Source: Candidatus Omnitrophica bacterium UBA6253
GTDB taxonomy: Bacteria > Omnitrophota > Gorgyraeia > Gygaellales > Profunditerraquicolaceae
DNA length: 64,000 nt
Assembly: GCA_002441245.1 (NCBI GenBank)
Contig: DJVP01000012.1
Coordinates: forward strand, 325,504-389,503
Direction: 5' to 3'
Under the pieces are notes generated by a model. It saw only the letters and a program-made list of their open reading frames with translations, was not told where the DNA came from and ran no database searches. Shown here piece by piece: positions 4,241-61,100 of this stretch; positions within the stretch are counted from its first letter, which is position 1, and every line of letters starts with the position of its first letter. Made by a program: the position numbers and the translations under genes.

Positions 4241-4245
4241 TTTAG

Positions 4246-6419: not shown

Positions 6420-6484
6420 CCTTATACTCCTTCCGTTTATCGTGGGGGATTTACCCCTTGGGGATAGATTATAAAAAGACGTAA

Positions 6485-6519
6485 TGTTAAAATTTAACAT
6501 ATTTTAATGCTCTGGTCAA
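6485..6519 (-). promoter_or_regulatory. Candidate sigma70 promoter plus a palindromic operator upstream of the sugar ABC operon.
   Basis: On the minus strand: TTGACC (rc of 6514-6519), 17-nt spacer, then TAAATT (rc of 6491-6496). A perfect 8+8 palindrome ATGTTAAA.TTTAACAT at 6485-6500 overlaps the -10. Confidence 0.4.
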
Positions 6520-6538
6520 GTTCTTTTGTTTGAAAAAA

Positions 6539-40100: not shown

Positions 40101-43100
40101 TCTCTTAAGGGAACCAAAACCTACATTCAATTCCCTGCAAATATCTTCGTTTGATTTTCCCAAAACAAGCAACACTAAAACTGTTACTTCCCTATCATCA
40201 AGCTTATTAGCGCAAGGAGATGAACTTAAGGAAGAATCGAAACCGGCCAAATGATTTTTTAGCTCGCCTAAATTCTCAATAACAAAATCAAAAGGCTCGA
40301 CTCCATCAAATAGCGCTTTGGCTTTCTCCAACTTACTTTCTTTTTCTTCGGCCGCGGCGAACATCGCCAACCGCACACCCTCAACAGCCTTCCTCAACGT
40401 AACGATTACTTTTGGAGCATCATCCACTATTAAAACTTCTTCTGCAGAGAATCCATTAGCCCTTATTATTTGAACCATTTCATCTATCTTAACCTTTATC
40501 GTGTCAGATTTTTTATTCTGCCGCTTAAGAAGAAACCTTGCTTCTTTAAAATATTTATTTAATCCGGAATATTTCAGTATATTTCTTTTTTCATAGCCTC
40601 CGGCAGAAACTATATAAAGGGGTAAAACCTGGCTTAGTCTTTCAACTGTTTCCTTGGCACCCGGAGTCAATAAAGAAACGGCTCGAGTTTTCAATATATT
40701 TTTTAACTGGCTGTCTCTTAATTCTTCATAGTCTTTGATATATTCCATAACAGGCTTGGCTTCTATTTTACCGCGCTGTCTGATAAGTCCGGATACCTCC
40801 GGCAATGTTTCCCTGGTAGGCGTACCTAAAACCCTCTTAAAAAATTCATTTATCCATGGCTCAAGCCAAAGAATATCTTTAAGTTCAAATCCGGCTTCCT
40901 TGAACATTTTATAAATTATCTGCCTGAGCACATCACGGCAAACAGGTATTGTATCCGCAATCACGCCGTCAAAATCAAATATAATTGCTTTAATTCCATC
41001 AGGTGAAGGAGAAACCGCTTTCTTCTCATTTGAAAAAAATACCGGCGAACTGGAGTGAAACATCGATGAAGCGCCCGATAAGTTAACACCATCCCTATTG
41101 TCGTTTAAAATTGATTTTGCCTTCTGGTAAAGATTGCTTATCAGGGAGTCACCGACGCTTTCATTATTCCGCAAGAAATCCGAGGATAGCCAGCCTACTT
41201 GTTCATTTTGGGAAGAAAAACTGTCCAATATGCCACGCACATAATATTCTAGATCTATAAAAATACCTGTATTCTCAATTTCCAATACATTTGTTAGTAA
41301 CTTCGACAATCTAATCCGCATGCTTTTTTCACAATTAAGATAACGGGCTGCGACGGATAACGGCAATCCTAAATCGCATTCTCTTTTTAAAACGGCCTGA
41401 CGGCGGGATTCTTCATCCCTGTTTACATACCATACTCCATCTAATATTTTCCCGACTTTTAGTTGGAACAGGTTGGCTGAATCTATAAAAATAGGCTTGC
41501 GGCTCCCATTATTAGAATCATGCAAAACCTTCAGTATCTGTTCATAAACCAAATGCCTTCTAGGTAAACAAGAAATGCGTATATAAAACCAATACAACAG
41601 AGGTGACAATGAAAAAATGTATTTTAACCTATTTATAATAATATTTTTCACGCAGCTTGAAAAATCGCCATAGACTACAGAACAGCCTTCTTTTTCTATA
41701 ATCCCGGAAACAGTGGTTTTCCCCACCCCCATAAATCCCGTAATGCCTATAAATTGAACTCCCAATTTTTCCTTTAAAGCAACAATCTCTTGAATCGTTT
41801 TCCTGCGACTCAATATTCTCAACGGCGAGCTGGCGGCTTGATAATTAACCATGCTTATTCCCCCTTCACAAACCTTGTATTCATGAAGAATACGCAGTAC
41901 CTCTGCTACGCTCCAGGCCTGCGAAGAAGTCCCTCCCGGATATTGAGGAACGGACAGACCAATCTCTCCGCCATTAAATACCTCGTCTATTGAGCCATGC
42001 GTAAAAAGCCTAAGAAGCAATTTCTCTGTTTTAAAACGCACCTCTTCTTTAATCTTTTCTTCCGCTACGCCTTGCCATCGTCTGACTCGCACCAATAAAT
42101 CTATCTCAGGACCGATAAGAAACGGCCAAGCTGTACCCTGGTGATAAGCAAAATCCTTGTGTTTACCAAAATCAACTGAATCTGGCCCTGGCTGACTGTT
42201 AGTATCATAGTGCGAATGGTAGTTGGAATCGCGTGGAGATAATGTTCGCGGGCCATAAGACGTACTTAAATCCTTCATGCAGGCATCTAACACCTGAGCC
42301 TGCTCCTCCATAGGTAAAATATCCGGTGCCACGCTCAAAGCAATAAGTTGGTTCGGCCGCAAAGCAGCTCCATGATTGGCGCTATCCGGTGTCCCATCCG
42401 GACCAATGACATCAAACAAACAATTTTCCCTCTCATCTAGCTCTCCGGGATTTTTTAAATGGTTGTTCCAAAATTTATCCCTGAAATTACTTTTTACCTT
42501 TTCTGCAAGTTCTTTCCAGTTCGGCTCATTCTTTTCCGGTTGCAGCCCGAATTCTTCCATTGCTTTAGCCAACCAGCGAAGGTTGGAATACCATAATCCT
42601 TGAATCTCTACGCACTTACCGTTACGCGGAGTTACGGGTAAGGTATGCTCCGGGATAGCGTCCATCCAAGTGCTCTGCGCAGGGCTAATGATTAACCCAT
42701 CTTCTTTATCAGCATAAATGCTTTGCCGCTGACCGTTGCGGTCATGATACCCTGTACCATTATAATAACCTAACATGACCCGGCGGATTACAGGCAGCAT
42801 TTGTTTAATGGTTTCGAAATCCCCCGTATAATCCAAATATTTATGTGCCATAACATAAACAAACCACATAGAGCCATCCACTGTGTTATACTCCGGATTA
42901 GCCGGGTCAATGATGCGGTTAGGGATCAAGCCATCGCGTTCGAATCTGCTAAAACTTTCGAGAAGCGCCCGTGCTTCAGGATGAAGCCATTTCTGCAGTA
43001 ATAAGCAACCGGTATAACTGATAAAAGTATCCCTTCCCCATTGCTCAAAGAACCAATCGCGGCTGGCGGCCCAAATTTGAGGTACTCCATTAAATGACTT

Positions 43101-46100
43101 AACAAAGGAATCCGCTGCGGCGCTTAAAGTAGGCATAATACAAGCTATAGCCTCTTCATCTTTCCAGACACTCTTTCCATCTTTCTGCAAACGCGGGTAA
43201 ATCCGGGTCGTAAATTTAATAAATGGCCCCAAGTCATAACGGCAGCGTTGATAATAATCCGAATCACCGGGGAGAGGTATTCGATATCTCCAGAGTGACT
43301 CACGAAGCACTATCTCTTCAGGTTTTAATTTTAACGAACGGTCATATCTGTCAAAGCCCGTGGCGTAGATCGTTTCACCCCATGACGTAGTTATGCGCAC
43401 AACCTTGATAAGCTCGTAATCTCCCCATAAATCACCCATAGTATAAATAATAAACTTGGAAGCATTGGGAGAAACTTGCGCCTGTAATAAGTTATTGAAT
43501 CCAACCATAAAATCCACCGCATTCCTGTGATACCAACGTGAATGGTCATCATGGGTACTAAGCCTCTTGGCATTTCCATCCATAACTACAAATCCAAGAC
43601 GCTCGGCATCGCCTGCTTTACCTTCATAGGCTTCAGCTAAAGGAAGTTTACCGCGTTCAAGATAAACCTTAATCAATGCAGCCGCAAAATCCTCCCCATC
43701 TTCATCGCCGCTGGCTAACTGTCCGCTACCAAAATTCCAGCTAAAATGCAAAGCATCAGTACGGCCTCCGGCAAAACCGAAATCCAACCAATGCATAATA
43801 GGATCAAGTTTAAGTTTATATCCATCTTTACGCAGGTTTTCCCAGTTCCAAAGGGCCAAATCCATCCATCTTTCATTGGAACATTCATTTACAATCCCCG
43901 GATAGCGGTTATAAATATCACGGAAAAATTCTTTATGATGCCGATAAACATCCACACTGTCTTTAGCGCGAAACATAGCATCGTCAAGAAGTAAATATCC
44001 ACCCATGGTATTCACATCCCGGACAGCTTCTGCCAATTGCTGGTACCCAATCCATTGACTATATTTGTACCTATTCTTTAATTCCGAGTAGTATGGAGTT
44101 ACTCTTACTTGATTTACCCGCTCATCCTCCCATTCCCACCAGGGCCTACTGTTGAAAATTAAGTGCAGGACCATAAAATCGGCAAAATCATCCAACCAAA
44201 CCTTATCATGATTTTTGCAGAACTCCTTAAACTGCCCGGCCCGGTTAGTGTTATTAAGAATACATTCCCGTTGAAAAACCTCAAAGGCTTTCTGCAAAAT
44301 TGTGCTTTCGCGATAGCGCAATTCCGCGTGATTAATTTCTCGTGAAGGAAAAGTTAGCAATGGCCCGAATTCCTTTTTATGTTTGATCACCTCCGGAACT
44401 TCTGACCAGTCATTATAATCAGTGTTAACAGCATATTGGCAAATTGAGCCATAAGGGCTCTCCAATAGAATAGGATAATGCGGAAGCATAACCGCAACCC
44501 TTACTCCATTCGACAGGAGTTTTGATTTAAAATGCGGAGCGATATCAGTCCATTTTCCGATTCCGGGATCATTCTCCGGCCTGCGTAACGCGCCAATACT
44601 CATTGTCTCAACAATATATGTTTCATCCGGCATCTGCCACCAGGCATCCATAGGTGAGCTGGAAACTAAGAAAACGCTTTCATTCGAAGGCAAAATAAAA
44701 CTACGCGACTCTACCTTTACTAATGCGCCAAGCTCTTTGGAAACAGGAGAGCTTGATTGTCCCGAGATAGAACAACTGCCCTTTTGGAGATTCGCTCTCA
44801 TCTCTTGAGGCGATAACACATTAATCTGAGTATCCACGCCCCAGCCATTAGCCCAGCTAATAACATCTTCTTTGCGTAAGGAGCCATTATTAGTATCCAT
44901 GCGTTCAAATAACGCCGCTGTCAGCCATCCGCTTCTCTTAGGCGAAAACGCAACAGTCCATTTAACGCTATCATTCTCTACTAAGTACTCCCCGGCATCC
45001 GCCTCCACTATGAACCGTTCGCTATTTACATTCTTTACAGGATTAGTAGTCCCCAATATTACCGGCACAAGCTTAGAGCATAACTCGTATCTACGCAGAG
45101 GAATGGTTATCTCAATTTTCATCTTGTGCCCCATTACTACATCCCAAATTCTTTCTTCTGTTTGTTTAACATAGCCCGTTTCTTCAATGATTTTGATTTT
45201 CATCTTGTGATTACTCTGGTTATTGATCTCCTGGCGCGCCTTACAGGTCAACCGGGGTGTCAACGTTACCTCATACTCCTCCTGCCATTTTCCTGATGTG
45301 GTTATAACGCGGAACTTCTTCTCTTTACCATTCATGCATATTGCTTTCCTAAATATAACCACACCTTCTTCCGGTTTTTCTTCTACTTGATTAAACTCCT
45401 CAATAACTCCTTCCGGAGTTTCTATCCATGCGCTTACACGCTTCAATCCATTCAGGCGAACCGGTACTACTAATTCTAACTCGTTAGCATTCCTGGACAT
45501 CACACATACCCTGCTTCCTCCCGTACATGGTTCGCTATCCAGTATAACCTTACCCGAATCTAACTTCTGCTTTATCCGCAGATAATGTTTCTCATCCTGC
45601 GCAAAGGTTACTTCATGCTCCGGCTGTGCGAATCCTCCAAACTCCTTCAATAATATCTGATGGATGAACTTACCAGGGTTCTTGGCTATCAATTCCTGCC
45701 TCTTTGCTTCCTCTTTACCGACCATCTTATCCCATTGCCGCGCGTATTCTGCTGCCGTCAAATTTACATCCACGCTACGGAAAAGCTTGAACCCGTCTAA
45801 CAAATGCTCAGTTAATCTACCCTGTTTCCCTGCTTCCAATACCCATTCATACAACTCTAAGTATGAACCCTCACTTGAATCTTTCGGTACAATATTCGAC
45901 CCCCGGACTGACTGACGGTTAGCCAACGCCTGAATCAACTGTATATACCCGTGTAAAGCCGCGCATCCGCCATGCATCCAAGTATGCGCCTCAGTTGACT
46001 CTGCGGCGCCTGTAATTAAGGGGTTGCGTAACTGTGTCAAGAATGACGAATCCTGCATCTGCGGCGCCAGACAAGGCAAAAGCGCAAGCTGCTGATCTAT

Positions 46101-49100
46101 ATCGAATTTCGGCTGATAAATCAGCTTGCTTTTCAGACCATGCACGTTTATCTCTCTGGTAAATCCCAGGAATTGCTCACCTTCATACTTGCTCCCACCC
46201 GGCAATTCTGTACCCATATAATCCTGCACATTACCAAGGATCACAAAGAATTGTCCTCTCTCAATAGCCTTTTTCACATTTTCATCGCTAAACGCGCCAT
46301 CACGACCCCACTTCTCATGTACCCACCTACCGCTGTAACCTGCCCACGGCATATCTTCAATTGCTGCCCAATACGCATCCCAGTCGCCGCTATATTCATC
46401 AGGTAATACTATATTCCACTCTTGAACATGAGACTTTATATAGGTGTTAATATAATACCATTTGCTTGCTCGCACCAATTCCGCGAACATCTCCATCAAC
46501 TCTTGGTCTGTCCGCTCAACGTTATCTACCCAAGCCCACAATTCTTCGTATGTAAGCTTATCCCTCTCCTGCTGGAATTTCGCTTTCTCGAATTTATCAG
46601 CAACACGCATCTTATCATTCAATCGCTCGTAAACATCTTTTGATGCCTGTCTCGCAAAGCGAGATTCGATAAACCGCATTGCAAAATACCTGAGCGTCAG
46701 CCTGCACAGGTCGCCGTTAGTCACCCCTATGCCGGTACTTTCATAAACCTGTGGATCAAATTTCCTCATTTGATAACCGTGTGAATCACTTACGTAATTC
46801 GTAAACCCCCTCCTGAGCATCGTTGCGCGCAACCCCGCGCTCGTCCAATCATAACCTTCATTACCGTGGACTGTCCGTCGCTTCCATAACCATAACCATT
46901 CATCAGGAACACCGGCCTGCTTCAAATATTCTCTGGTTGCCGATAATGTATTCAACACCGTATGTGAGGTACTCCCATAGTAGGCCTCTAATAAAACAGG
47001 TGTCTGGAACTCAGGTAAAAATAAACTCCACGCCGCAGCCGCCACCGTCTGTCCATCATTCAATCCTAAAAACGGTGCCTTCCACAATACCCCTTCTTGC
47101 GCCCGCCGGCCCTCCTCTATTTTATTAACCACCGCAAGGAATGCTTTCGTCGCAAACTCAACTGAATGTGATACCGTTGGATCCCTATGCCGTTCGGCTC
47201 CACAATTGCTGTCATCGTAGCGATATAGAATCTGTGCGTACCAGCCACCTGCATCCCTGAACATGACAACCGGAATACCTTCATCATTTTCAGCCTGATA
47301 TACCAGAACCTCTTCTTTCTTCCCCTGAAATGTTGCCTCTATTCTCATTGTAATATCATCACCCATTTTTAATGGTATAGGCAGCGATCCGTAATCTAGT
47401 TTTTTGTCGATTTCTCTCTCATAGCTTGATCCCCATAAATACCGAGGCTCCACTATTACTACATCGAGACCCATTGCCTTTAGAGCCCTTGCCAAATACT
47501 GCATTACTCTGCCTAATCCACCCTTAAGCTGCGACACTTCTGGAGCAAGTAAATACAATCTCCTGCCCTGTAGATGCTTAAATGCCTCTTCACCCCATTT
47601 CTGTAAATCCGGGATCATATTCAACATTAACAACACCGACTCTGTAAGAGCGCTTCTTTCTGCCACATACTCTAATAAATCTCCGTTAACACTACGGAGC
47701 AAATACTTTACCAACATATCCCTCATTTTTGCATTTAAACCCAGCACGCCTCTCAGGAACGGTTGGCGCGCCTCTACGGGACCAAGCGGGAATTCTTCGG
47801 AAGCCGCGCTATAGCTATTTACCATCTCTGCCAGCGCCTTTTCATTTTTAATCTCTCCCTGCTCATTAAACATTCCACGCAACTCTTCCTCTATGAAGAA
47901 ATTCAACTTCGCCCAAGTCGCTATGGCTTCTTTTTTCTCTCTCAATTCGTAGTGCCCATGTTTATCCCTTGAGATTATTTTCAAATTCTCCAGGTAATCA
48001 AAGATATCCTGGATATGTATTCCGCTTCTATCTCCTATATTGCTAAAACCAAATCGCTCTAATAACTCCATCTCCACTTTCTTACTCATCGTATCATCCA
48101 GCTTTACCGGCAGGCGTCCTTGCTTATCCCATTCAAGCAATAATTCCGCTGTCCCGAATAACATTGCCCAGTATGCCGGCATATTACCTTTATTATCCCG
48201 AATAGCCTGATGTGGTAACGGATATTTTGTATTAATAATTTCTCGTGACAAACCATAACAAATATTATGTTCTACGGGTGAAGAGCAGTTTTCTACCGGG
48301 GAGTTTAAATAAGCGGAAACTTCTGCGGGCGAAGAAACAATAGTTTCCCCAGCCGGCGGGCCTCTCTTAGGCAAGGATTTGGCTATTACATCGGTTTCTA
48401 CTATTGCTTGCGAGGTAAAACCTGAAATCTTCTGAAGGATATGGAGGAATTTATCGTCTGAGATATTAACAGGGCTTGAACCAAAAGAAATCTTATTAAA
48501 AATCTTATTACTATGCAACAAAGGGATTGTCTGGGGGACAGGCTTTTTATCGTTATCTGAAATAATAAGTAAATCCCCGTTTTTAATTAAATAGTCTCCT
48601 CCCCGCTTAAGCCTGCAGACCATGGATAAATCGCCCTGGCTATCGGGAAAATATTCACCTAAGGAACAAACTCTAATATGCGGATCGCTTACATTCAAAA
48701 CACTGGCTATACTATCTATCTTGCTTTCTGAAGGGCTGCGCAGGGCCTTTATGGTAACGGGAGCTTTTATATTGCTCCCCAGTTTGATAACATTTATATA
48801 CTTATATTCGCTAATATATTTTGAAATTATAGAAAATATTTCCGCGGCATTTTCCGCCGCTTCTACCCCTGGTATCACCTCAAATTTTTGATTCTCCAGC
48901 GCGTCAATTTTCTGCAACTTATGAGACCAATATGCCATCTTACCCAAACGCATCTCCCTATAAGTTTTTTGTGAATAAATCTGTATTTCGTATTTTACGC
49001 CAAAGCCGTCTTCAAAATCTATGTGGTATTTTTGTCCCGGAATTACATACCCCCCTTCAAGCTTAATGTCTTTACTGTCTATGTTGCTTGCATTTATATT

Positions 49101-52100
49101 TATACCAAATCTGCCCTTCAAGATCTTTCCGATATACCATACTGCGCCATGCACATCTACATCACTTTCCACGATAACCGTTATCCCCAAGATGTCAGTT
49201 AGGTCTGATATTGAAGTGTATTTTTCGTCCCCCCTATTGATCTTTAACCACGCGGTAAAAGCCTTCTTAACCCTGTTTAAAACAGTTGCCCTTATCCCAT
49301 CTTCATTAAGCCCATTTCTTATATCTTCGGATAAATCGTTTAAATATTTATTGGCATCCGTTCGGCTCCTTCCGATAACTGTTTCGATTTCTTTCTCTAT
49401 AATGTTATGGATACTGCCGGCGTAATTTCTGAATACTTCATCCAGGAAATCCCCGGCCAATTCATCCAAACCCAATCTCTCAGCCAACGGAGCATATATA
49501 CAGGCTATCTCCTCTAACAAATCCTTTTTTCCTGTATAAGTAGAAATACTTATGAACTTATCCGCCAACACCAGATATAAACCCTCGATGCTTTCGGAAA
49601 GTCTTATAACAAGATTGATGCGGTTATTAACGGCTTCCTGGTCTTTGTAATTTAGACCATACGGAAGGTTAATTAATCCGGTCAGCCTCTTTACATAAGC
49701 GATAATTCTTCCTGCCTTAGACTTATCAACCCCCAGCCCTTTAAGTATCCGTTTTATCTCTTTCTCCGAGGAGACCTTATGCAAATAAGCAGCATAAATA
49801 ACTTCTTCCTCGGAGGTAAATTCCAAGGCCTTAGCCGCTACTCTTTTTGTATGTGTAAAATATGTCTCTCCAGAAGAAAATTTCTTGCCCCTGTATTCTT
49901 CGCTCAAGATCTTCTCTATCTGAACAATCCGTTCGCCTCTAATCTCTACCGGTGAACTGGAGTAAAAAGAGTTATTCTTTCTAATATTCCCTATATCCTT
50001 AGCTGAAGAAAGCGATGCCCCTTTCAGAAAGACTACATATGGCCTTTTTTCTAATAAGGGCGCTAATCTCATGGCTGAGTTCAAGCCAGTTGCCAGAACC
50101 ACTCTTTCCTTTAACACTGCCTCCCGGCTCGATAAGAAAGTTATAGCCAGAGAACCAGCCCGGGTATTTAGCATTGATAAAAATCCCTTCAATTGTAGAC
50201 TCAAGGCTAGCGAACTCAAGAACCTGTAAATCGTGCATTTTACTCCTCCTTTGTTAATTAGATTATTAGAAAATAATATCTCTTTCCCTGTAATCTCCAT
50301 CGGCGAGCTAGAAACACCATCTCTCTGAATTAATGACCTTGAAGGCACAAATAAAGAAGCCCCCAAAATCCCGGTGCAGCCAACTATTTCTTTTAGCCCG
50401 TGTATTCGGTCGGCCTCTATTAATATAATATCTCTATATCCCCTGGAATTAAGTTCGTCTTTCAAGGCAGTGAGAATGTTCTTTCTGTTAGAGCTTTTGA
50501 TCAACCATCCGCCTAAAATAAAAATACTACAACCTTTAACGCTTTGCCAGAATTGTCTTTCCAATTCTTCAGGAATATTAACTATTAATTTTCTACCGCT
50601 ACCCTCATAGATCGCAATGATAGCCCGGGATAAATCCATACCTACCTGGTTAAATATCGAGATACTGGATGCCCGAATCAAAGCATCCGTTGAATATGTC
50701 AACTTGCTAAGGGATTCACCGTCAATCCTGTCTAATTTTTGTAAAACAGTATTCTGGCAGGCAAGATTCGCAATCCCCTTGCCGCTAATAAGATCTTCAC
50801 AGGTCAAATAATCCTTAGAAAACTTTCCCTTGCCTTTACGGATAACAATATCGAAAAATTGTTGCGGCCCGGGCATAATAACTACCTGATTATTCTTAAT
50901 GAACAAACCTCCGGCCCCAAAACCGGTGCCGGGAATAATATTAATAATTTTAGGAGCAGTTTTAAGCCTGTCTTTAACCGACGCAAACTCTCTCGAATTA
51001 ATCAAAGAAAGTAAATGGTGTGTCATAGCCAGGCTATGCGCAACGCCGTCATTATTGATAAACACCTGCCATTCTTTGCTTAATCTATCTATTATTTCAT
51101 CTGCGAACTTCAAACGCTCCAAATCAGGCACATTGAAAGCTGTTCCGCTATAAACCAGCCCGTTTTCTTGCCAGGCGCCGGGAGCTGAAATACCTACAGA
51201 CTTTAATAAACGACGACTTTGCATCTGCTTGCTTCTTAAGCCCTCCTTGATCAAAACAACCATGGAATCGATTGCTTCAGGTAAATCAACAACTTTTTCT
51301 CCATTAATAATCTTAAACGGATTCACACAAGAACCCTTCCAGAGAATAATCGGTTCGCCGATAAACTGACCTTTTCTAATTTTTCTTTGAACTAATGCTA
51401 CTCTTATGTTCGTGCCGCCAAAATCAATAGCCGGAATTACAACCGAGCTGATTCTATCCAAGGGATTAGTTAATTCTTGTAATGGTGAAGAGCTGAATAT
51501 ATTACTCGATTCATTAAAAGTTTCAGGCGTCAAAGACCCTAGTCCTTCAGCATCATAGATAATACCAGAGTTAGTTATCTCGGTTTCATCTATGTAAACC
51601 CCTAGTTTGGTTAACCCATAAACAAAATTATGATATATCCACTTTCCGCCGTCTGTTAACGGCAGATCTTGAGACATAGGGAAAGTTTCTAATCCCTGAA
51701 GACTATAACTGATCCAACTAGTAAACAATGCATGAATAGGATAATAATACGGCTGGATAATTACGGGATTATAAACATATAAACCAGCTAAAGGCTGGTC
51801 TTTTATTGCCCGATACAGGTCTGTTCTAGTAATTTTTCCTTCAGCAACGCCCATATCGATGATTTTCGGCAGCATCTTTGCATAAAGATAGTATAAAAAC
51901 CTCGTATTATCGTGCGTCTCGTTGTAATGCTTATATTTTATAAATATTGCGTCCTCGCAAATAGTGCCGATAGCATCAATTTCAACCGGATTAAGCAGTA
52001 GTAGGTAAGCGCTTTTAGTGTGACCGCCCCCGGGGGAAATAATTACTTTTACCCCTTCACGGATAGCAAGCTCTCTAAAATTGTAAACCTCTGCACCCCC

Positions 52101-55100
52101 CTTTGTAATACTTTGCGGTCTCCAGAAATTGCCTATCCTTCTAAGATCATTGGCGAGAATAATGTTTCCATCTATGCTTATATTAGAAATATTATCTACA
52201 ACAATCCCTTCATCCAAAGCCACCTTTCGCTCAGGAGCAAGGCGCATAGAAAGCATGTCCCAGCGCTTTTCGCTGAATTGCTTAATTATTGTATCCAGAT
52301 GAGAGATTATTCTCCCGGGGATTACGTCCTTAATCCTCTCCTCTATGGATAACGGCTTAAGCCAGAAATTACCTCTTATACAATTTTCCGGAATAATATC
52401 AGGTAAAAATTTTCCAACGTCTACAAAAATCTTCCAGCCATAAGGCAAAGCTTCGTGAATTACAGTAAAACAACAAAGTAATCTATTTAAAATAATCATT
52501 AGATTAACATCATCAATAATAATAACGGCTGGCAAAATATCTTCCATGATTTTTTCAAGATTTACAATCCTCTCTTCCGCTACCGCTAATATCCTAAGCA
52601 ACACAGTCTCAATTCTTTCTCTTAAAACTAAATTATCTCCAGTCTTCTTATTAATATGTTTATTTAGTAAGATAAGAAGAGGCTTGTTTGCCAAAAGCTC
52701 TATCTGTTTCTTGACCTGACGCATCCCTGACGGAATAAACCATCTATTTAAACCACTCAGGAGACCAAATTGACCATTCTCATAGATAGCCTCATCAATA
52801 TATGAATTTGCTTTAAAAATATCCTCCGGGCTATGTATATCCGGACCAATAATACTCTTTAATCTCCCAATAGCAGTCAGCCTTATGTTAAGAAGAGATG
52901 AGGACGAATGTTTATATTTATATAGAGACTGGACCCTGGCAAAGTTTAGTTCCGATAAATCTCTTACAACAATATCTGCACCTGCCTCTTCCAATTTCTG
53001 ACTGTTACCCACCCTGTCTATACCAATTATTAAACCGAAGTTCCCTCTTTTAAAAGCCTCAACACCTAAAGGAGCATCCTCAAAACCGACACACTCTTCA
53101 GGTAAAACTCCAATTTTCTGGGCAGCTAACAAGAATATCTTCGGGCTAGGCTTACCTTCGCCAACATCTTTCTTAGTTATAATGACTTTAATAATATTAT
53201 TGAAAACGCTTTCTTTTAAGTAATAAGAAAAAACTGTCGCGGAGCCTACTGCTATGCGGATATTTTGTCGGTCTAATTCTTTTATAAGAGATGCAGTTGA
53301 ATCAAATAACGGGACTCCATTGCTATCCCTAACGAACTCGCTAATCGCTTTTTCTTTCCGTTGGTCTAATTCCTGAATAAATCCCTTACTTGCACCGGGG
53401 AACATTGCTTTAAAGGCATCCTTACCGCTTACTCCATTGGCAAATCTATTATATAGATTCAAATCAAAATACTTACCTTCCCTCGCTAATATTTTTTTGT
53501 AAATCTCAAACCAAACCAATGCCGTATCCGCTATCACCCCGTCAAAATCAAAGATCGCGCCCTTAAGAACACTAGCAGGGTTTTCAATGATAGATGAGGA
53601 AGATTTTAGATCTAACTGAGAACTTGCATAAAGCGCAGCGCCTATAGCGCCTCCGTATTGCCTATCCACACTCGACAAAGAAACCGTAAACCGCCCTTCA
53701 TTAGCTTCACTCAATAAATTATTGATTCCTTTTAATATTCCTGTTCCGGCTTCCGCTACCGTAATACCTCCTGTAATTATGAATTTTGTATCCTGCCTCA
53801 TCCTATTCATCAAGCGCATCCAGGAATAAATTGAATGTGATAAATCACAATAAACTCTTCGCGCCTCCGCATACCCGATTTGATCTCGATTCTTTAATAA
53901 CTGACTTATCTCTAAAACACTAAGATTATCTTTCCCTGCAATACCAGGTAAAGCGAACTTCTGGGAAATCCTTAAGATACCACTGACTCCGGCAAAAGCT
54001 GCAAAACATCCTTTAACGCTGCATCCTTGGTCAAATGGAGCATCCTCTCTAAGGTTGACCACAAAAGCTCCGCTCTGTTCAATTCGACTCATATCTATTA
54101 ATCCACCTTCAAACCGAGCGCATCCTACTCCGGTACCTAAAGCCAAAAGCACTCCATTATCTATTTTGTCATAATTAAGTGCGGCTACGGCAAACGAGGT
54201 TACATCATTTAAAACCCTTACACATTCAATGTGATATTCTTTTTTTAGTTCTTCCAACATGCTATGTAAATAGCCATAGTCTTCCCGGAAATCCGCATCC
54301 ACTCGCTCATGAGCCTTCCCCCATTTGTATTCATAATTAACCAACCAAATAATGTTACTTTCAATCGGGTTTACTACTCCCGGCAATGATATCCCTATGC
54401 CATCTATCTTATAGCCCTTAGACATATCTTTAGCTAAATTCATTATCAAGTCTTTCAGTTCTTTCCCACCGGTAGTCACGGTATCAATCGTAGTTTTTTC
54501 CATTACTAACCCATCCCTAACAACTACGGACTTTATTGTTGTTGCTCCGACATCGATTCCGATAAAGGCCCCTTTCATCATTTCCGGAGGTAAAGGCCCT
54601 AACAAATGCCTGACCAACTTATCCATCAAAAACTGATTTTCCTTACTGTCATACGTTAGGAAACTAACCTTATTCCCGAAATTCGCGAAATATTCCAACC
54701 TCTTGAAATTATCTTTAAGATGGTTCGCTAAAAGATAAAATACCGCCTCCGACATCTTCTCATTGGTTGAGCCAACGTATACTTTTTCCGCGCTAAAAGC
54801 AACAATGTAATTGTAGAGGAAAGAAGATATGTAATTAAGAACACTCTGTCTAATTGGACCTTCAAAGAGTTCTTTTACAAGAGGAATTGAAACCTCTCTC
54901 ATTTCAAGCCCAGACTGTAAAGCAACCAGTATTCTATGGCTATTAGGATATTTGTTAGTAATCAGGGCAAAAAGCATATCCCAATCATTAATATCTCCGG
55001 ATGTCAGCGCCTCTTTAATAAGGTTTTTTAAACCAGATTCATCGCTTAATGCCGGAACAGTCGGATCAAAAATCTTTGTTTTATTTTTCTTGACGATATA

Positions 55101-58100
55101 ATTACCAATGAACAGTGTATCGACATCTTGCATATATCTAAAAGTATTCAGGGCTTCTTCCGGATTCTCTACTAATGGTTCATGCTTGTTAAAAGAAGTA
55201 TTGACCACTGCCGGAACCCCAGTCAATTCCCCTACCTTATCCAAAAGTTTCAAATAAAGGGTGTTATGTTTTCCGTCTACAGTCTGGGGCCTCGCTAGTC
55301 TTTTCCCATATTGATGAACTCCGGAAGCCAACATATGTTTCTTATCCGCAAGGACGTCAAAAGCAACGACCATAAAGGGAGATTTGTAAATTCCCTTAAA
55401 ATATTCTTTCGCGACAGACTCAGAAATACTACAGGCAGACGGCCTCCATAACTGCCTTCCCTTTAGAATATTGGCGGTATTATTGGCGGTGTCGTCCAGA
55501 AGGTTTAATAAAATGCTTCTTGCGCCTAGCGCCCGCGGGCCTAACTCGCTTTTCCCCTGAAACCAGGCAACCGGCTCATTTTCTACTATCAAACGAGAAG
55601 CTTCATCTATTATTTTTTGATCGTTTGCCGCGATATAATCAATTCCCTGTTGAAGCCCAAACCGATCCAGAACTTTTCGAATTTCTTCATCACTGTATTC
55701 AGGTCCATAAAAAGCATGCTCCATTTCAAAGAAAACATCTTGCCCATATACCTCTTTAGCAACCACCAAAGCCGCGCCGATCGCTGTTCCGGCGTCGCTT
55801 GCTACCGGCTGAACAAAAATATCTTCGCCATCCACTAATCCATCGGAAATGATCTTCCCATTCGCTAATATATTCAAAGAAATCCCGCCGGATAAAGACA
55901 CCTTTTTAATATCTCTTGTCTTACGGGCTTCTCGAAGATGATACCTTACAATATCTGTTACAATGCTATCTGTCGTTTCCTGAAGCACAAAAGCCAAATT
56001 GGCGAAAGACCTGTCTTCAATCAAAAGAGGATCAATTTCTTTGCTATTTTTTGTACATAAAGGAACTAATGCCTGGAGCTTCTTTACCAGCGCGTTGGTA
56101 ACGCGAATCTTTCCAGGCGCAATACCTCCATAATAAAGATATTCGGGATTAGCGACCAATTTTCCACTAGTAGAATCAAAATATATATAATCATTGAAGA
56201 TTTTCCTTAGATTTTTTACCCGGTGTCTTTCCGTATCGTCCCGTGGTTCTCCATATGGAGCTAAGCCCATGATCTCGCCTTCTGCAAAAGTAGGCCGGAA
56301 GCCAAGATATTCTGTCATTGCAGCCCAAACCCATCCTAATGAATTAGGCAAGGTATAATTTCCGATTCCTTCCATTTCTCCATTATCACCGATCCAAATC
56401 GTCCCTGAATCAACATCTCCATAGCCATCCAGACAAACAACCAAAACAGGGTCTTTGAAACCACTGAGGTAATATGCCGAAGCAGCATGCGCAAGATGAT
56501 GACTGATAAACGAAATTAAGGGAGTGTATCTAGTATTATAGTATTTTCGCATTTCAGCCAAAAACTCTTCCAGATTACCGATGCTAAATCGCGCTTTATT
56601 CTTCTCGGGAACATTTCTGCGAATAATCCCTTTAATAGTAATATTTTTTTTTGCGGCAAACTCTTCATCCATTTTCCGAAAAAATTCATCCGAGGGGGCA
56701 GGAGAATGCGGAGTATCAACGTAAAGATTATAATTCCAGCCAATGGCAATATGAGCTATATCTTCTAACGATATATTCTCATCTTTAAGAAGCTTATGAA
56801 TTGCCAGAATAGGAAACTTTGAAGCATCGTGCTTAGTCCTAGACATACGTTCTTCTTCTAAAGCCGCTACAATCTTTCCGTCTTTCAGCAGGACTGCGGT
56901 AGAATCATGCCAAGAACCAGATATCCCCAGGATATATTGACCTTTTCTATTGGCGCCGAAATCACCTTGGTATAATTTTATCGTTATCCCGTCGTAGAAG
57001 ATCCGATCTTTAAGGCCGGCATACTCAACGGGAAAAATGTCATTTTTGTGGAAACGGACAAGTCTATCAGCAAAATACAAATCAATAACACGGTCTTTAT
57101 TAATAGTTACCCTCTGGACGCCGGAGATCTGACTAAGCAAGATAATCATTTCTTTATCGGTAAAGACGTTAAAGCCGTTACAAAAATCCATAAAGTTATT
57201 CAAATCATACTGATCTATCATGATCCCATTATCTGCGAGCGTCCTGAAAATAATATCCTGCTCTCTGGTGATCCGTGAAAAAAGCTCTTCCATTTTATTC
57301 AACCCTTCTTCAAGGGTCCTATTCTTCTTTAAAAACCAGGTCCTAGCGACAAAGGAATCAACGCCTTTACGCAAAATTCTATGCAGGCTTTCTTCGTTGA
57401 TCCCACCGTCGATTTCAATCGGAACATTGTGGATACATCGTTCACGGAAGAATTTCCTCAACATGGCTATTTTTTCCAAAGTTGAAGGAATAAACGGACG
57501 ACTGCAGGCGCCCGGGACTATCGCCATCAGCATAATAGATTCTATTTCCCTACCGATCATCTCCGATATATTCTCAAGCGCGGATAAAGGAGTTTCAGGA
57601 TTAAGCACTAAACCAAATTTTAAATCTAATCCTACGGTCTTTCTAATAATATCCTTCAGTTTCTCAATTTCATTAAATGATTCAAAATGAATGAGTATTT
57701 TATCCCTTTTGCTTTTTAGTCCGGCATCAGACATTCTTTTTACAAGAGAGAAATCCGGTGCTACGGACATCAGGTGGACTATTAAAGGCAACTTTGTGAA
57801 AGAAAGCTCCCGAATCTGCTTACTGCAATCAAATGCCTCAGAATCAGGAGTAAATACGCCGTCAAGATAATCGATATGTATCCCATTCATCCCCGCGGCT
57901 TCCACTCTCCTTACCTCTGATACAACTTCCTCATCCAAAGCTGATAAGATCGAAAAGTAAACATTTAGCGATTTTATTGAGGTAATAGCGGAAGACGACC
58001 CTACCGGAGCGTACCATCTGATTATCTTTGAGGGGTGGTTAGAAGTGTTGGTAAGGGTGAATTCTTTAAGATAAGCCGGGATTATGGCGCAGTCATTGGT

Positions 58101-61100
58101 AGAGAGAGTTTCAGGAGAATAGTTAGGAGCATTGATCTGGACTGAGCCTTCTAAGATGAATATAGGATAGCCGTGGTCATTAGCTTGCTGGCTTATTCGG
58201 GTGTTAAGAGTAATCTCATCTACGATTACTTCAGTGGTGGTAAAGAGATTATCAATATGATTACCTTGATTATCATTAAACAGGTTTGCTCTCTGGCTGT
58301 AAACTTTAGCTAAGTTTATTTTATCATAAGCAGGAATATTGGCTCTGATTAAAGCATCATTTAAAACCTCCAGAGCTCCAACTATATCTTCTTTGCCTGG
58401 CCTGGGTGATTTACCATCAGTCCTGTCCCAAAGAGCAACTGTAGCTCGTTTTAAATCACCTTTCTTGATTTCTTCACCTGTTGGAGCATGAGACCATTCC
58501 CAGATGGTTGTGCCAAACCGAATAGCATGGATTAAACCACCTCCAACTAAGATCAAATCGTTTTCTTTAGCATTTAATTGATACAGTAGGTTTTCTAAGC
58601 TTCCTTCATTGTAGGCTCGCAAAAGGATTTCAGCAGTTATATTTTGATTTAGGCCCAGATATAACTTTGCTCCGCCTGGACCAACCATCCACATCTCAGG
58701 CTTAGCAGGCCTGGAAGAATGACCTATAGCCGGATGAACCTGAACCCCCAAGGATAAACCGGCATCAATTAACTTCATGATAGTAGCCATGGATCTGCCG
58801 TATCTTCTGATATGTTCACCACCTAAGATACGTTCCCCTTCTTGCTCTAAGAGCTGGATGAGGTTAAGATTAGAATCAACTACCTTTGAAGGATAGGTTT
58901 GATCATCTGAGGCAAGCCATAATTCACCTACAGGCTCATTCTCAGGATTAGCTTTATTTACATCAGCTATATCTCCAGCTGGCAGGTCCTTGTAAGTCAA
59001 TCCTAAAAGCTTTAAGATATTTGATTCCTTGGCAGGCCTGCCCCAGGTGTAAGTATGCTTACCGGTGCGGATGTTGGCGCTATAGATACGAACTATAGCG
59101 CTGAGAGGGGAGGAAGAAACATAAATCCTCTCTACGTCTTGTTGGGTTAAACCAACTTCGGCCAACTTACGATAAAGTTCTTCATTGGCAATTAAAATGT
59201 GCCCGGTCATTTCTAAGCTGGCAAATTTAAGCTTATGGCTACCATTTAAATTGATTTTTGCGTATTCATCTTGACGTGGAAATAAAATAGCCCTCGGATT
59301 ATTTTTTCTTAAGTTAAATGACAAATTATAAGGCATGTTCTTAAGCGATAAATTATTAATGTCTATTAATGTTGCTTCACTCAAATTTTCTATATCTTTT
59401 TCTTTAAACATAAACGCCGGAGCCGGCCAACCCATAATCAATCCTTCTTTCGTGGGATCATAAGCATCGATGTATTTCCAGATATTGGTCTGTTTCTTAA
59501 AGATCTGGAAATGTAAGTGGTGTACGGAATGGCCTGCGCCAGGGCTATTAAAAGTGGCTTCGTAATCTTCACCCATTGCCTTTAAAACTAACAAAGTATC
59601 TTCTACTCTTTTAGCATCCAATGATTGTTTCCGATGCTCTTTGCTAACCAAATTTAGGTGAAATGGAACATAGGGGAATTTATTGGCTATTAATTTATAT
59701 TCTCTCCCTTCTATTTCAATCTCGGCTAAAACCTGTTTATCCAGAATATTGCAAAAAGGACAAAGCGAATTATTATCATTCTGTTGATTAACGTATCCTT
59801 CCCTTAAATTAAATAAAACTACTTCTATTTCAGCTCCGGAGCCAAGCGTTACTTTCTGGGAAAAAGTATCAATAAATTTGTAAGCAAAAATGTCTCTATC
59901 GCTACAAGATAATTCCTGGAAACGCTTTTCAATAATCTCTTTAATTACTCCTGATTTTACATTGTTGTTTATATTTAGCTTCAGAATTGCTTTAATTGGC
60001 GAAGAAACACTGGGTTTTTCAGTTTTGTTCTTTCTCTGAATTTTTTGATTTACCAGATAAATAGTCCCATAAGCTTGGGCAAATCTGCGTAAATTATCAT
60101 CTGGAACTATTTCTTCAGGAAAAATAATCTGGGGTATTAGAGCTCTAAGATGAGGGAAATCTCTTTCTATAGTTTCTTTTAAGCTCTCATAGTAAACTTT
60201 ACCAGCTAAACAATTAAAATCTTTATTCTGAGCCTTATCTTTAACTTTAACCTTAGTGATTCTACCAGTGAGAAGCAATTCGTCTGGAAAGTCCGGCCCA
60301 AAATCATAATATATATCATTTAAAAAAATAGCCAAATGCTTACCTAAGTGCCGGAATATTTCTACCGCGTCTTCATTATAATCTTCTCTTTCAGGAGACG
60401 TCATAAGCTGTAATTCCTCTAATCTTTCTGCCTTCTCTTTTGCTTTTAATTCTATATTTTTCTCTTTAGCCAATCTAAAAGCTGCCTCCTGAGCTAAATG
60501 TTTCTGGGCCGCATCTAATATACCGGTGTTTTTGTTTTCAGTGCCAGCTTCCTTGTCATCTGTCAAGATCACATTGCTTGCCCTCAAAAACATCGGGGTT
60601 AATTCGCCATTCATATCCACATAACCAGCGCCAGGAGAAGTTCCAACTGCAATACCTAAAATATTGCCTCTTTCTTTTTCTACGGCAGCCCAGAAAGCAG
60701 TAATATTACCATCGTTAGCAATAGCCACTTCGGTTTTAAATTCTTTTCCTATTTCTTGAGCTAATAAACCTAACTTATCAAATTCATTCCAATATTCTTC
60801 TTTAGACCACTCTTCCCGATTCCAACGCTTCTTTCTATCCTCTTTAGCTTGTTCAATCCCTTCTCTCGTTCCTGTAATTCCCAGGCTTGCGGTTTTACCG
60901 GTATCTCCACCAACAATTAAGCCATTATAATTTTCATCATTAATTATCATATCCGGCCAGCTTATTCCAATACCTACTATCTTCTCATTATTTCCTACAG
61001 CCTTCAATACTTCCGGTATTACAATTTTATTAATGAAATCAATATAGTCGCTAGCCCGAGTAAAATCTTCCGGCTTCCAGCCCTCTTTTTCACCAAACTC

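What the first reader, a model, noticed from the sequence alone, without database searches (positions are those of the whole stretch)
52890..57999. Degenerate or proline-less junction variants: SSSSII, SSSSLL and SSSAI.
HAD module F is flanked by KSSSSIIENP (53586-53603) and HSSSSLLNIR (52890-52907). The PMI-to-Rpe boundary is PVGSSSAITS (57985-57999). All three retain the Ser run and the hydrophobic +1/+2 residues but have lost the proline. If SSSP|V is a cleavage site, these would be inactivated sites yielding permanently fused products (PMI-Rpe, ROK-HAD). If it is a linker, they show the Pro is dispensable. In the same ~1830-aa stretch (53604-59102), Rpe, the carbamoyltransferase and ROK#2 are fused with no junction motif at all, so the junction is not obligatory at every domain boundary.
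Basis: seen in the sequence. Interest (0 to 1): 0.6.

Follow-up and report, generated by a model that had tools for sequence, protein, structure and literature searches.

The report
Proline-less junctions in a giant gene
Three serine-run sites in a giant (over 18,752 amino acids) bacterial gene are real variants of a short Ser-Ser-Pro-aliphatic tag that marks where once-separate enzymes were joined, and relatives show the proline is replaceable, which gives a concrete way to test whether these giant proteins are cut into pieces.

Summary
KSSSSIIENP, HSSSSLLNIR and PVGSSSAITS are encoded on the minus strand where stated; the last is 1 nt off. They lie in one ORF of at least 18,752 aa from a Candidatus Omnitrophota genome.

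The ORF carries S-S-P-[V/I/L/M/A] 50 times against about 1 expected. Serine codons come from both codon families, so selection acts on the peptide.

By count alone the three proline-less Ser runs are not above chance: 6 non-Pro SSS runs against about 6 expected. Position and comparison show they are true junctions.
- Stand-alone HAD and PMI homologues begin and end within 0-8 residues of them.
- The AlphaFold HAD core ends at both SSSS runs.
- The same PMI end is SS(S)P in two related giant ORFs.
- A second HAD and the closest multi-module HAD carry SS(S)P at the same places.
- Other orthologous junctions swap Pro for Ala, Ser or nothing.
- One relative uses only SSS-aliphatic.

The SSSS codons changed synonymously three times, and never non-synonymously, against a 95%-identical strain.

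The proline is therefore dispensable. "Dead cleavage sites" is not supported.

My preferred mechanism, which is inferred, is a processing-protease site resembling elastase and subtilisin substrates (AAPV). The main rival is an uncleaved linker.

The parts
7680..64000 (-). Giant ORF of at least 18,752 aa. The stop codon is at 7680-7682 and the N-terminus lies beyond the right edge of the window. It is a multi-enzyme 'fused operon' protein of a Candidatus Omnitrophota bacterium.
   Evidence: ORF listing. The frame is open to position 64000. Pfam tiling of unrelated enzymes. A 95-97%-identical partial protein is labelled Omnitrophota. The same locus is found in NCBI GCA_028712745.1.
59103..59117 (-). 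Canonical junction SSSP|L (aa 1608-1612) at the N-terminal end of the PMI module. It opens the longest stretch of the ORF without a canonical junction.
   Evidence: Met1 of the stand-alone PMI (L005) aligns with the Pro of this motif.
57987..59105 (-). PMI (type I phosphomannose isomerase) module, aa 1612-1984.
   Evidence: Pfam PF20511. Orthologues are 54-80% identical. Stand-alone ORFs of 371-382 aa occur in L005 and L006.
57984..57998 (-). Variant junction SSSA|I (aa 1981-1985) between PMI and Rpe.
   Evidence: Rpe Pfam profile position 2 starts 10 residues after it. Stand-alone PMIs end 6-8 residues after the WYAP motif, at the same place. The orthologous position is SSSP|I and TSSP|V in L001, GSSP|V at a second PMI end in L026, SSSA|I in P0001 and P0002, and SSS|I in L007 and L004. 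Identity between the window and P0001 switches from 69% to 95% here.
53592..57986 (-). Rpe, carbamoyltransferase (N and C domains) and ROK#2 (aa 1985-3449), fused with no junction motif between them.
   Evidence: Pfam. No SSP or SSS and no convincing one-mismatch variant in the inter-domain gaps.
53586..53603 (-). Variant junction SSSS|II (aa 3446-3451) between ROK#2 and HAD module F.
   Evidence: The ROK Pfam match ends 11 residues before it and the HAD match starts 10 residues after it. Met1 of stand-alone HAD homologues aligns 7-8 residues after it. It lies in pLDDT<50 coil just before the confident HAD core. The fourth Ser codon TCT is one transition from CCT and is TCC, a synonymous change, in the 95% strain. 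P0044 has SSP|L before its HAD.
52896..53591 (-). HAD module F (beta-phosphoglucomutase-family hydrolase), aa 3450-3681. It corresponds to a complete stand-alone gene of about 216 aa.
   Evidence: Pfam HAD_2 and Hydrolase. The nearest relatives are stand-alone proteins of 214-222 aa at 36-43% identity. AlphaFold mean pLDDT is 81.
52890..52907 (-). Variant junction SSSS|LL (aa 3678-3683) between HAD module F and an unannotated 470-aa module.
   Evidence: Stand-alone HADs end about 5 residues before it, and the paralogous HAD (aa 7633-7908) has SSSP|C in nearly the same alignment columns. pLDDT falls from 92 to 58 at this point. There are two synonymous and no non-synonymous changes in its four Ser codons against L026.
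51483..52895 (-). Module of unknown function, aa 3682-4152, ending in the next canonical junction.
   Evidence: No Pfam hit even at E<=0.1. The only relative found is P0001.
51480..51494 (-). Canonical junction SSSP|L (aa 4149-4153), which closes the 2,541-aa stretch without a canonical junction.
   Evidence: Identical in L026.

Best explanation
Shown:
- The window holds one giant Omnitrophota gene in which dozens of formerly independent genes are joined head to tail. They include sugar-phosphate enzymes, kinases, HAD phosphatases, glycogen enzymes, methyltransferases and HTH regulators.
- Most joins carry a five-residue peptide tag, [S/V/A]-S-S-P-[V/I/L/M/A]. It sits within 0-8 residues of the native ends of the ancestral proteins.
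- SSSA|I, SSSS|II and SSSS|LL are genuine members of this junction family. In them the proline is replaced by Ala or Ser, a single-nucleotide change from CCT in each case.
- In related giant ORFs the same junctions switch freely between SSP, SSSP, SSSA and SSS. The serines and the following aliphatic residue are the constrained core, and the proline is replaceable.

Inferred mechanism, about 0.4 likely:
- The tag is the recognition site of a processing endopeptidase that cuts the giant precursor into enzyme-sized products.
- Small-small-Pro-aliphatic is the classical substrate pattern of elastase- and subtilisin-type serine proteases (AAPV, AAPF). The cut would then fall after the aliphatic residue, with Pro at P2.
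- Ser or Ala at P2 would leave the three sites cleavable, perhaps more slowly. They would tune the order of processing rather than abolish it.

I put the identity of the three sites as junction variants at about 0.85 and the cleavage mechanism at about 0.4.
For: Motif statistics:
- SSP occurs 52 times against 3.2 expected, and 50 of the 52 are followed by V/I/L/M/A. Information is confined to five columns.
- Serines use both AGY and TCN codons at every position.

Junctions fall at ancestral gene ends:
- Stand-alone HADs of 214-222 aa start 7-8 residues after SSSS|II and end about 5 residues before SSSS|LL.
- Stand-alone PMIs in L005 and L006 start at the Pro of SSSP and end where SSSA lies.
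- The AlphaFold core is bounded by both SSSS runs.

Junction history:
- The PMI end is SSSP|I and TSSP|V in L001 and GSSP|V at a second copy in L026.
- P0044 has SSP|L before its HAD, and the window's second HAD has SSSP at both ends.

Pro is interchangeable at orthologous junctions:
- PRK end: SSSP in the window and P0002, SSP in P0003, SSSA in P0001.
- Window aa 759 ASSP|V corresponds to P0002 TSSS|L.
- L004 has 0 SSP but 6 SSS-aliphatic sites.

Selection on the variant sites: three synonymous and no non-synonymous changes in the eight Ser codons of the two SSSS runs, against 62 synonymous and 44 non-synonymous per 1,700 codons regionally.

For cleavage specifically:
- A fixed short motif with a defined aliphatic position, unlike ordinary linkers.
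- Very short spacers to the native termini.
- Clusters of motifs that give 4-48-aa mini-segments.
- The resemblance to AAPV and AAPF substrates (PMC5297747, and general protease knowledge).
- West-Roberts et al. propose cleavage of these giants but state that cleavage points are unknown.
Against: - No peptidase domain was found in the 18,752 aa in the window or in the neighbouring genes at Pfam sensitivity.
- There is no proteomic or other direct evidence of cleavage.
- Related Omnitrophota giants L002, L003, P0049 and P0071 show no enrichment of the motif, so it is not required for giant proteins in general.
- Several multi-domain stretches have no junction at all: Rpe-carbamoyltransferase-ROK, and GH77 plus GDE.
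- By count alone the three variants equal the chance expectation.
- For SSSS|LL no orthologue more distant than 95% identity could be found.
- Ser/Pro-rich peptides are also typical of passive linkers.
Confidence: 0.45

Rival explanations
1. The tag is an uncleaved inter-module linker or 'insulator'. Ser gives flexibility and solubility, Pro breaks secondary structure, and the aliphatic residue starts the next fold. The giant protein works as beads on a string, and the three variants are simply linkers in which Pro was not needed.
For: - The junctions lie in low-confidence coil outside the folded core.
- Pro is replaceable by Ala, Ser or nothing.
- Some giants lack the motif altogether, and some boundaries have none.
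- No protease was found.
Against: - Natural linkers vary in length and sequence. Here a fixed four- to five-residue string recurs 50 times with invariant S-S and a defined aliphatic position, and nothing else is conserved.
- The motif is kept while flanking residues diverge completely between orthologues, for example the window's 'PSVSSPIKAI' against P0002's 'NNGSSPVNTG'.
- Spacers to the native termini are only 0-8 residues, which is short for dozens of independently folding enzymes.
Confidence: 0.3
2. SSP-aliphatic is a cleavage site that needs the proline. The three variants are dead sites, so PMI-Rpe-carbamoyltransferase-ROK-HAD-X stays as one product of about 2,541 aa.
For: - Aa 1612-4152 is by far the longest stretch without a canonical junction: 2,541 aa against a median of 243 and a next-longest of 1,177.
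- Each variant is one nucleotide from a Pro codon.
Against: - The Ser runs are preserved through synonymous turnover, and the SSSA state of the PMI end is conserved from 95% down to 76% identity. Decayed sites should drift.
- Proline-less forms are about 40% of junctions in P0002 and all of them in L004. That would make those giants largely uncleavable.
- Proteases that accept Pro at P2 commonly accept Ala or Ser. This last point is general knowledge and was not tested here.
Confidence: 0.12
3. The three Ser runs are chance low-complexity strings that happen to lie near domain borders and are unrelated to the SSP junctions.
For: - There are six non-Pro SSS runs against about 6.2 expected, and three of them followed by an aliphatic residue is close to the roughly 2 expected.
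- One-mismatch variants are not enriched.
Against: - All three sit within a few residues of independently defined module ends.
- Canonical SS(S)P occupies the same PMI end in L001 and L026.
- SSS[SA][VILM] occurs 3 times against 0.2 expected, with 0 of 300 shuffles reaching 3.
- Proline-less SSS-aliphatic is enriched in four related ORFs.
Confidence: 0.04
4. The tag acts during translation or at the nucleic-acid level. It could be a ribosome pause or StopGo-like event at Ser-Pro, or a DNA recombination scar left when modules are inserted. Under this reading the variants are old, decayed copies.
For: - In the window the last Ser codon is TCG in 20 of 52 junctions against 4.4 expected, and a recurrent string AGTTCGCCGGT occurs.
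- Module order differs between relatives, with breakpoints at junctions.
Against: - The codon bias is absent from L001 and L007 junctions.
- Serines use both codon families, which a DNA site would not tolerate.
- There is no conserved upstream nascent-chain segment of the kind 2A peptides need.
- The residue after Pro is rarely a start codon: GTG in 6 of 28 Val.
Confidence: 0.07

Closest known systems
Omnitrophota giant multi-enzyme proteins ('Archaeovorin'-type of West-Roberts et al. 2023, bioRxiv 10.1101/2023.11.21.568195; 'multi-enzyme metabolic cluster' class of bioRxiv 10.64898/2026.06.07.730766)
   Same: A single ORF of tens of thousands of codons in an Omnitrophota genome, tiled with GT5 glycogen-synthase-like, methyltransferase, radical SAM, HATPase_c, HAD_2, ROK and TPR domains.
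   Different: In the text I could search, neither paper describes a recurring junction or cleavage motif. West-Roberts et al. state that cleavage points are unknown. The SSP-aliphatic tag is lineage-specific and is absent from other giants sampled here.
Viral polyproteins with short protease sites (for example picornavirus 3C Q|G and coronavirus Mpro LQ|S/A/G)
   Same: Many unrelated mature proteins in one ORF. A short, position-specific motif at most boundaries. Non-canonical variants at a minority of sites. Some boundaries are left uncut to give fused products.
   Different: The organism is cellular, the cargo is cytoplasmic metabolic enzymes, the precursor is about ten times longer, no cognate protease has been identified, and cleavage has not been demonstrated.
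Elastase- and subtilisin-type serine protease substrates (MeOSuc-AAPV-pNA, Suc-AAPF-pNA; PMC5297747)
   Same: Small-small-Pro-aliphatic. The aliphatic position here is V, I, L, M or A and never F, Y or W, which resembles elastase-type P1 preference.
   Different: This is a resemblance of sequence pattern only. No such enzyme has been linked to this locus, and the position of the scissile bond is unknown.
Ser/Pro-rich flexible interdomain linkers of multidomain bacterial enzymes
   Same: Short, polar, predicted disordered, and placed between independently folding domains.
   Different: Fixed sequence and length, with high information content in five columns and an obligatory aliphatic residue.

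Membership tests
Omnitrophota giant multi-enzyme protein | A single uninterrupted ORF of more than 10,000 codons | tested here: met
   18,752 codons without a stop, and the frame is still open at the window edge.
Omnitrophota giant multi-enzyme protein | Encoded in an Omnitrophota genome | tested here: met
   The 95-97%-identical P0001 is labelled Candidatus Omnitrophota. PMI-module relatives L001-L003 are Omnitrophota MAGs. The window's own genes are found in NCBI GCA_028712745.1; I did not check that record's taxon label.
Omnitrophota giant multi-enzyme protein | Many distinct enzyme families tile the polypeptide (GT5, methyltransferases, radical SAM, HATPase_c, HAD_2, ROK, TPR) | tested here: met
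   Pfam scans, compared with the domain lists. NUDIX and peptidase domains were not seen in this part of the protein.
Omnitrophota giant multi-enzyme protein | Transmembrane anchors or SecA-like segments | not tested
   No topology prediction was run, and the N-terminus is outside the window.
SS(S)P-aliphatic junction family (defined here) | Lies at the end of an ancestral stand-alone protein | tested here: met
   All three variant sites meet this, from alignments to stand-alone HADs and stand-alone PMIs, Pfam envelopes and the AlphaFold core limits.
SS(S)P-aliphatic junction family (defined here) | At least two serines followed, directly or after one small residue, by V, I, L, M or A | tested here: met
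   SSSA-I, SSSS-I and SSSS-L.
SS(S)P-aliphatic junction family (defined here) | Proline before the aliphatic residue | tested here: not met
   Ala or Ser stands in its place. Orthologous junctions show that this position varies among P, A, S and absent, so Pro is typical of the family rather than defining.
SS(S)P-aliphatic junction family (defined here) | The canonical form occurs at the orthologous or paralogous position elsewhere | tested here: met
   PMI end: L001 and L026. HAD N-terminal end: P0044 and the window's second HAD. HAD C-terminal end: the paralogue only, since no distant orthologue was found.
Protease-processed polyprotein | A short conserved motif at most boundaries between mature proteins | tested here: met
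   50 SSP-aliphatic sites, with a median spacing of 243 aa.
Protease-processed polyprotein | A cognate protease encoded in cis or in the genome | tested here: inconclusive
   No peptidase Pfam hit in the window's ORF or in neighbouring genes. The N-terminus and the rest of the genome were not available.
Protease-processed polyprotein | Cleaved products observed | not testable with these tools
   This needs proteomics or biochemistry.
2A-like StopGo peptide | A conserved upstream segment of about 18 aa ending in NPG|P | tested here: not met
   There is no information outside five columns and no NPG.

The most novel reading that the evidence does not exclude
S-S-[P/S/A]-aliphatic is the cleavage code of a cellular polyprotein. 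On this reading an Omnitrophota bacterium translates a fused 'operon' of more than 50 cytoplasmic enzymes and regulators as one chain. A dedicated elastase- or subtilisin-like protease then cuts it after the aliphatic residue. The P2 variants (Ser or Ala in place of Pro) and the motif-free boundaries set which enzymes stay fused and in what order products are released. This would be the first defined processing map for bacterial giant proteins.
Probability: 0.3. Interest if true: 0.85.

Novelty: new variant of a known kind. Interest (0 to 1): 0.58.

Why it matters
Giant Omnitrophota genes are known. Whether their products act as one chain or are cut into pieces is an open question, and the original description says that missing knowledge of cleavage points blocked further analysis.

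A compact, statistically overwhelming boundary tag gives a concrete hypothesis. The comparative evidence adds which positions are essential (Ser-Ser and the aliphatic residue) and which are not (Pro). This hypothesis can be tested now in three ways:
- Re-search existing metaproteomes for semi-specific peptides that end or begin at the tag.
- Split giant ORFs at the tags for structure prediction.
- Profile complete Omnitrophota genomes for a protease that co-occurs with the tag.

The tag also shows how such genes grow. Whole ancestral genes are joined end to end and reshuffled at the tags.

Tried and rejected
1. I asked whether the variants stand out by count. They do not: SSS runs without Pro match the chance expectation, and one-mismatch variants of SSP-aliphatic are not enriched. 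I dropped count as an argument and relied on position and comparison.

2. I considered a nucleotide-level element. TCG-CCG is strongly over-used in the window's junctions. The bias is absent in L001 and L007, and both serine codon families are used, so a conserved DNA or RNA site is rejected. The bias remains unexplained.

3. I considered internal translation starts. The residue after Pro is mostly GTT, GTA or ATT, which are not start codons. Rejected.

4. I considered a 2A-like skip. There is no upstream conservation. Rejected.

5. I searched for distant orthologues of the module after HAD F. The protein search returned nothing, not even the 95% relative, which is a tool limitation. The metagenome scan returned only unrelated HADs matched through one HAD peptide.

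6. I looked for a protease in the ORF, in the five downstream genes, and in 10 kb further downstream in another assembly. None was found.

7. Three plus-strand ORFs of identical length (161 aa) looked like a repeat. They are unrelated Ser/Leu-rich antisense ORFs.

8. P0002 looked like a complete 3,630-aa protein. Its ends coincide with a frame change and a scaffold gap, so it is probably a broken giant ORF.

Full report
**1. What is there**

The window is dominated by one minus-strand ORF, 7680-63938, of 18,752 codons. Its reading frame is still open at position 64000, and its first residues match only the C-terminal half of a PRK/uridine-kinase domain. The true N-terminus therefore lies outside the window.

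Pfam scans of the whole ORF show unrelated enzymes and regulators in series:
- PRK, DUF4922 and type I phosphomannose isomerase (PMI).
- Ribulose-phosphate 3-epimerase (Rpe), carbamoyltransferase and ROK kinase.
- Two HAD phosphatases and an HD domain.
- GT5 glycogen-synthase-like, GH77 and amylo-1,6-glucosidase.
- LuxR-type HTH domains, CofD, several methyltransferases, radical SAM and GNAT.
- HATPase_c, TPR and sigma-70 region 4.

A 95-97%-identical partial protein is labelled Candidatus Omnitrophota. The window's downstream genes occur in NCBI assembly GCA_028712745.1 and eight other contigs, so the ORF is not an assembly accident.

This is the 'Archaeovorin' or 'multi-enzyme metabolic' class of Omnitrophota giant gene described in two preprints. 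In the text I could search, neither preprint mentions a junction or cleavage motif. [quoted passage not shown]

**2. The canonical junction**

- SSSP occurs 29 times against 0.22 expected, and SSP 52 times against 3.2. In 50 of the 52 cases SSP is followed by V, I, L, M or A.
- A column-by-column count shows information only in five positions, [S/V/A]-S-S-P-[V/I/L/M/A]. Nothing is conserved on either side.
- Every serine position uses both AGY and TCN codons, so the constraint is on the peptide.
- The segments between SSP sites have a median length of 243 aa and a mean of 354 aa, which is gene-sized.

**3.

- KSSSSIIENP is at 53577-53606, HSSSSLLNIR at 52881-52910 and PVGSSSAITS at 57978-58007.
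- They lie inside aa 1612-4152, the longest stretch of the ORF without a canonical junction: 2,541 aa, against a next-longest of 1,177 aa.

**4. Are they more than chance?**

Not by count.
- The ORF has six SSS runs not followed by Pro, and composition predicts about 6.2 SSS.
- Single-mismatch variants of SSP-aliphatic are not enriched: SSx-aliphatic occurs 19 times against 28.5 expected.
- One of the six runs, IIISSSTDDEA, is an internal motif conserved in orthologues.
- The narrower, post-hoc pattern SSS[SA][VILM] occurs 3 times against about 0.2 expected, and 0 of 300 shuffles reached 3.

The real evidence is position and comparison.

**5. Position**

HAD module F (aa 3450-3681):
- Its nearest relatives are stand-alone beta-phosphoglucomutase-family hydrolases of 214-222 aa at 36-43% identity.
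- In the alignment their Met1 falls 7-8 residues after SSSS|II, and their C-terminus about 5 residues before SSSS|LL.
- An AlphaFold model built on that alignment (mean pLDDT 81) has a confident HAD core from residue 31 to 250. The N-terminal SSSS lies in pLDDT<50 coil. The C-terminal SSSS lies where pLDDT drops from 92 to 58.
- The ORF's second HAD (aa 7633-7908) has canonical SSSP|V and SSSP|C at the same two places.

PMI module:
- In two MAG contigs (L005, L006) PMI is a free-standing ORF of 371-382 aa.
- Its Met1 aligns with the Pro of the upstream SSSP. Its stop codon falls 6-8 residues after the conserved WYAP, exactly where SSSA lies in the window.
- The Rpe Pfam match begins 10 residues after SSSA.

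All three sites are therefore at ancestral gene ends.

**6.

PMI end:

| Form at the PMI end | Where |
|---|---|
| SSSA\|I | the window, P0001 and P0002 (PMI module about 80% identical) |
| SSS\|I | P0003/L007 (54%) and L004 |
| Canonical SSSP\|I and TSSP\|V | two PMI copies of L001 (71%) |
| Canonical GSSP\|V ('...KIIRWYAPVGSSP\|VKKIDTT') | a second PMI end on the contig that encodes P0001, which also carries 'KWYAPVGSSSA\|IVSTK' |

HAD N-terminal end: the closest multi-module relative, P0044 (39% identity), reads 'KEVSSP|LIKGAIFDFDG'.

HAD C-terminal end: no orthologue beyond 95% identity could be found. The evidence here is the paralogue and the stand-alone termini.

Other orthologous junctions show the same interchange:
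- The PRK end is SSSP in the window and P0002, SSP in P0003 and SSSA in P0001.
- Window aa 759 'NIASSP|VLANF' aligns with P0002 'KVTSSS|LINVA', with homologous sequence on both sides.

Counts of proline-less SSS[A/S]?-aliphatic sites in the related ORFs:

| ORF | Proline-less sites | Note |
|---|---|---|
| P0001 | 4 | |
| P0002 | 3 | beside 4 canonical sites |
| L004 | 6 | no SSP at all; part of L004 is an internal duplication |

Each count compares with an expectation of 0.03-0.3.

Other Omnitrophota giants (L002, L003, P0049, P0071) show no enrichment of either form. The tag is lineage-specific.

**7. Selection on the variants**

I compared the window with the 95%-identical strain (L026).
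- The eight Ser codons of the two SSSS runs carry three synonymous and no non-synonymous differences.
- The fourth Ser codon of SSSS|II changes from TCT to TCC rather than reverting to Pro.
- Over the surrounding 1,700 codons there are 62 synonymous and 44 non-synonymous differences.
- Next to SSSS|II, 'IIENPASVLKG' became 'IIENSTSVFKG' while the Ser run stayed unchanged.

The sample is small, but it argues against neutral decay.

**8. Module shuffling**

| ORF | Order of modules |
|---|---|
| Window | PRK, then a 1,483-aa block, then PMI, then Rpe |
| P0002, P0003 | PRK, then PMI, then that block |
| P0001 | PRK, then a 31-aa PMI remnant between two SSSA tags, then Rpe |

Identity between the window and P0001 jumps from 69% to 95% at the PMI tail. 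Rearrangement breakpoints therefore coincide with the tags.

**9. What the tag does**

Shown: it is a peptide-level, selected, five-residue tag at ancestral gene ends, in predicted coil, with a replaceable proline.

Not shown: any biochemical event.

A fixed short motif with an obligatory aliphatic residue is unlike ordinary linkers and is typical of a recognition site. Small-small-Pro-aliphatic is the classical substrate pattern of elastase- and subtilisin-type serine proteases (MeOSuc-AAPV-pNA, Suc-AAPF-pNA; PMC5297747, and general protease knowledge). The aliphatic position here is never aromatic.

I therefore favour a processing-protease site cut after the aliphatic residue, at about 0.4. 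Pro would be at P2, so Ser or Ala there would still be acceptable.

Three points count against it:
- No peptidase domain was found in the window, in neighbouring genes, or in the related fragments.
- The N-terminus and the rest of the genome were not available.
- Giants without the tag exist.

The main rival is an uncleaved linker, at about 0.3. Translational or DNA-level roles are unlikely. The window-specific excess of TCG-CCG at the Ser-Pro step (20 of 52 against 4.4 expected) remains unexplained.

**10. Verdict**

- The three sites are genuine proline-less members of the junction family.
- 'Pro is dispensable' is supported.
- 'Dead cleavage sites' is not supported.
- Whether junctions are cleaved at all is open, and can now be tested directly by proteomics.
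- The giant gene is of a known kind. The junction tag and its variant rules appear undescribed in the literature I could search.

Noticed in passing
window 63939-64000 (minus strand): The giant ORF's frame has no stop up to the window edge, and the first domain is only the C-terminal half of PRK. The ORF is therefore longer than 18,752 aa, and the listed GTG start is not the real start.
   Followed up: partly
window, all 52 SSP sites; most clearly in the C-terminal half of the ORF (about 7680-27000): The Ser codon just before Pro is TCG in 20 of 52 junctions (4.4 expected, p about 2e-12), and Pro is mostly CCG, which gives a recurrent AGTTCGCCGGT. The bias is absent from non-junction Ser-Pro pairs and from junctions in L001 and L007. 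Possible causes are recent copying of junctions or a translational effect.
   Followed up: partly
L026 1-2400 (contig of P0001) against window 57984-63938: In the 95%-identical strain the 1,483-aa block is absent, and PMI is reduced to a 31-aa remnant between two SSSA tags. Identity to the window jumps from 69% to 95% at the PMI tail. This is a recombination breakpoint at the junction.
   Followed up: partly
L001 ORF aa 3519-3535 against window 53562-53603: 'SSSP|IINKNPASVL' in L001, before a CofD-like module, closely resembles 'SSSS|IIENPASVL' in the window, before HAD F. A shared leader of about 10 aa stands in front of unrelated modules.
   Followed up: partly
P0070, P0042, P0051 (hits): Other multi-HAD proteins carry a different recurring string, [K/A]-x-[S/N/H]-S-A-G, directly before each HAD domain (P0070: 3 observed against 0.11 expected). 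This may be a second lineage-specific boundary tag.
   Followed up: no
window 48276-48479; 12012-12032; 11340-11366: Junction motifs occur in clusters that give mini-segments of 4-48 aa, for example 'SSPVSSPL' and 'SSPAASSSSPV'. They resemble spacer peptides between cleavage sites, or duplicated linkers.
   Followed up: no
window 41823-44660 (aa 6430-7372): GH77 4-alpha-glucanotransferase and amylo-1,6-glucosidase (GDE_C) lie in one junction-free segment. This pairing resembles the bifunctional eukaryotic glycogen debranching enzyme.
   Followed up: no
L027 3090-3360 and 14250-14400 (contig of P0002): The apparently complete 3,630-aa P0002 is bounded upstream by a change of frame with open sequence, and downstream by a scaffold gap (Ns). 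After the gap the glycogen-synthase end reads 'SLSRSSSP|LSDD'. It is probably a broken giant ORF.
   Followed up: partly
window 1119-7231 (minus strand): Downstream of the giant ORF lie a PilZ protein, a sugar ABC transporter (one binding protein and two permeases) and a TPR-GH2/GH5-like glycosidase. Further downstream in L023 are a GH5 mannosidase-like gene, ROK, LacI and ribonucleotide reductase. No protease is present.
   Followed up: yes
L005 and L006: Stand-alone PMI genes 57-60% identical to the giant's PMI module sit on contigs binned as Thermoplasmata and Nanoarchaeota MAGs. This reflects either mis-binning or gene exchange between Omnitrophota and archaea.
   Followed up: no
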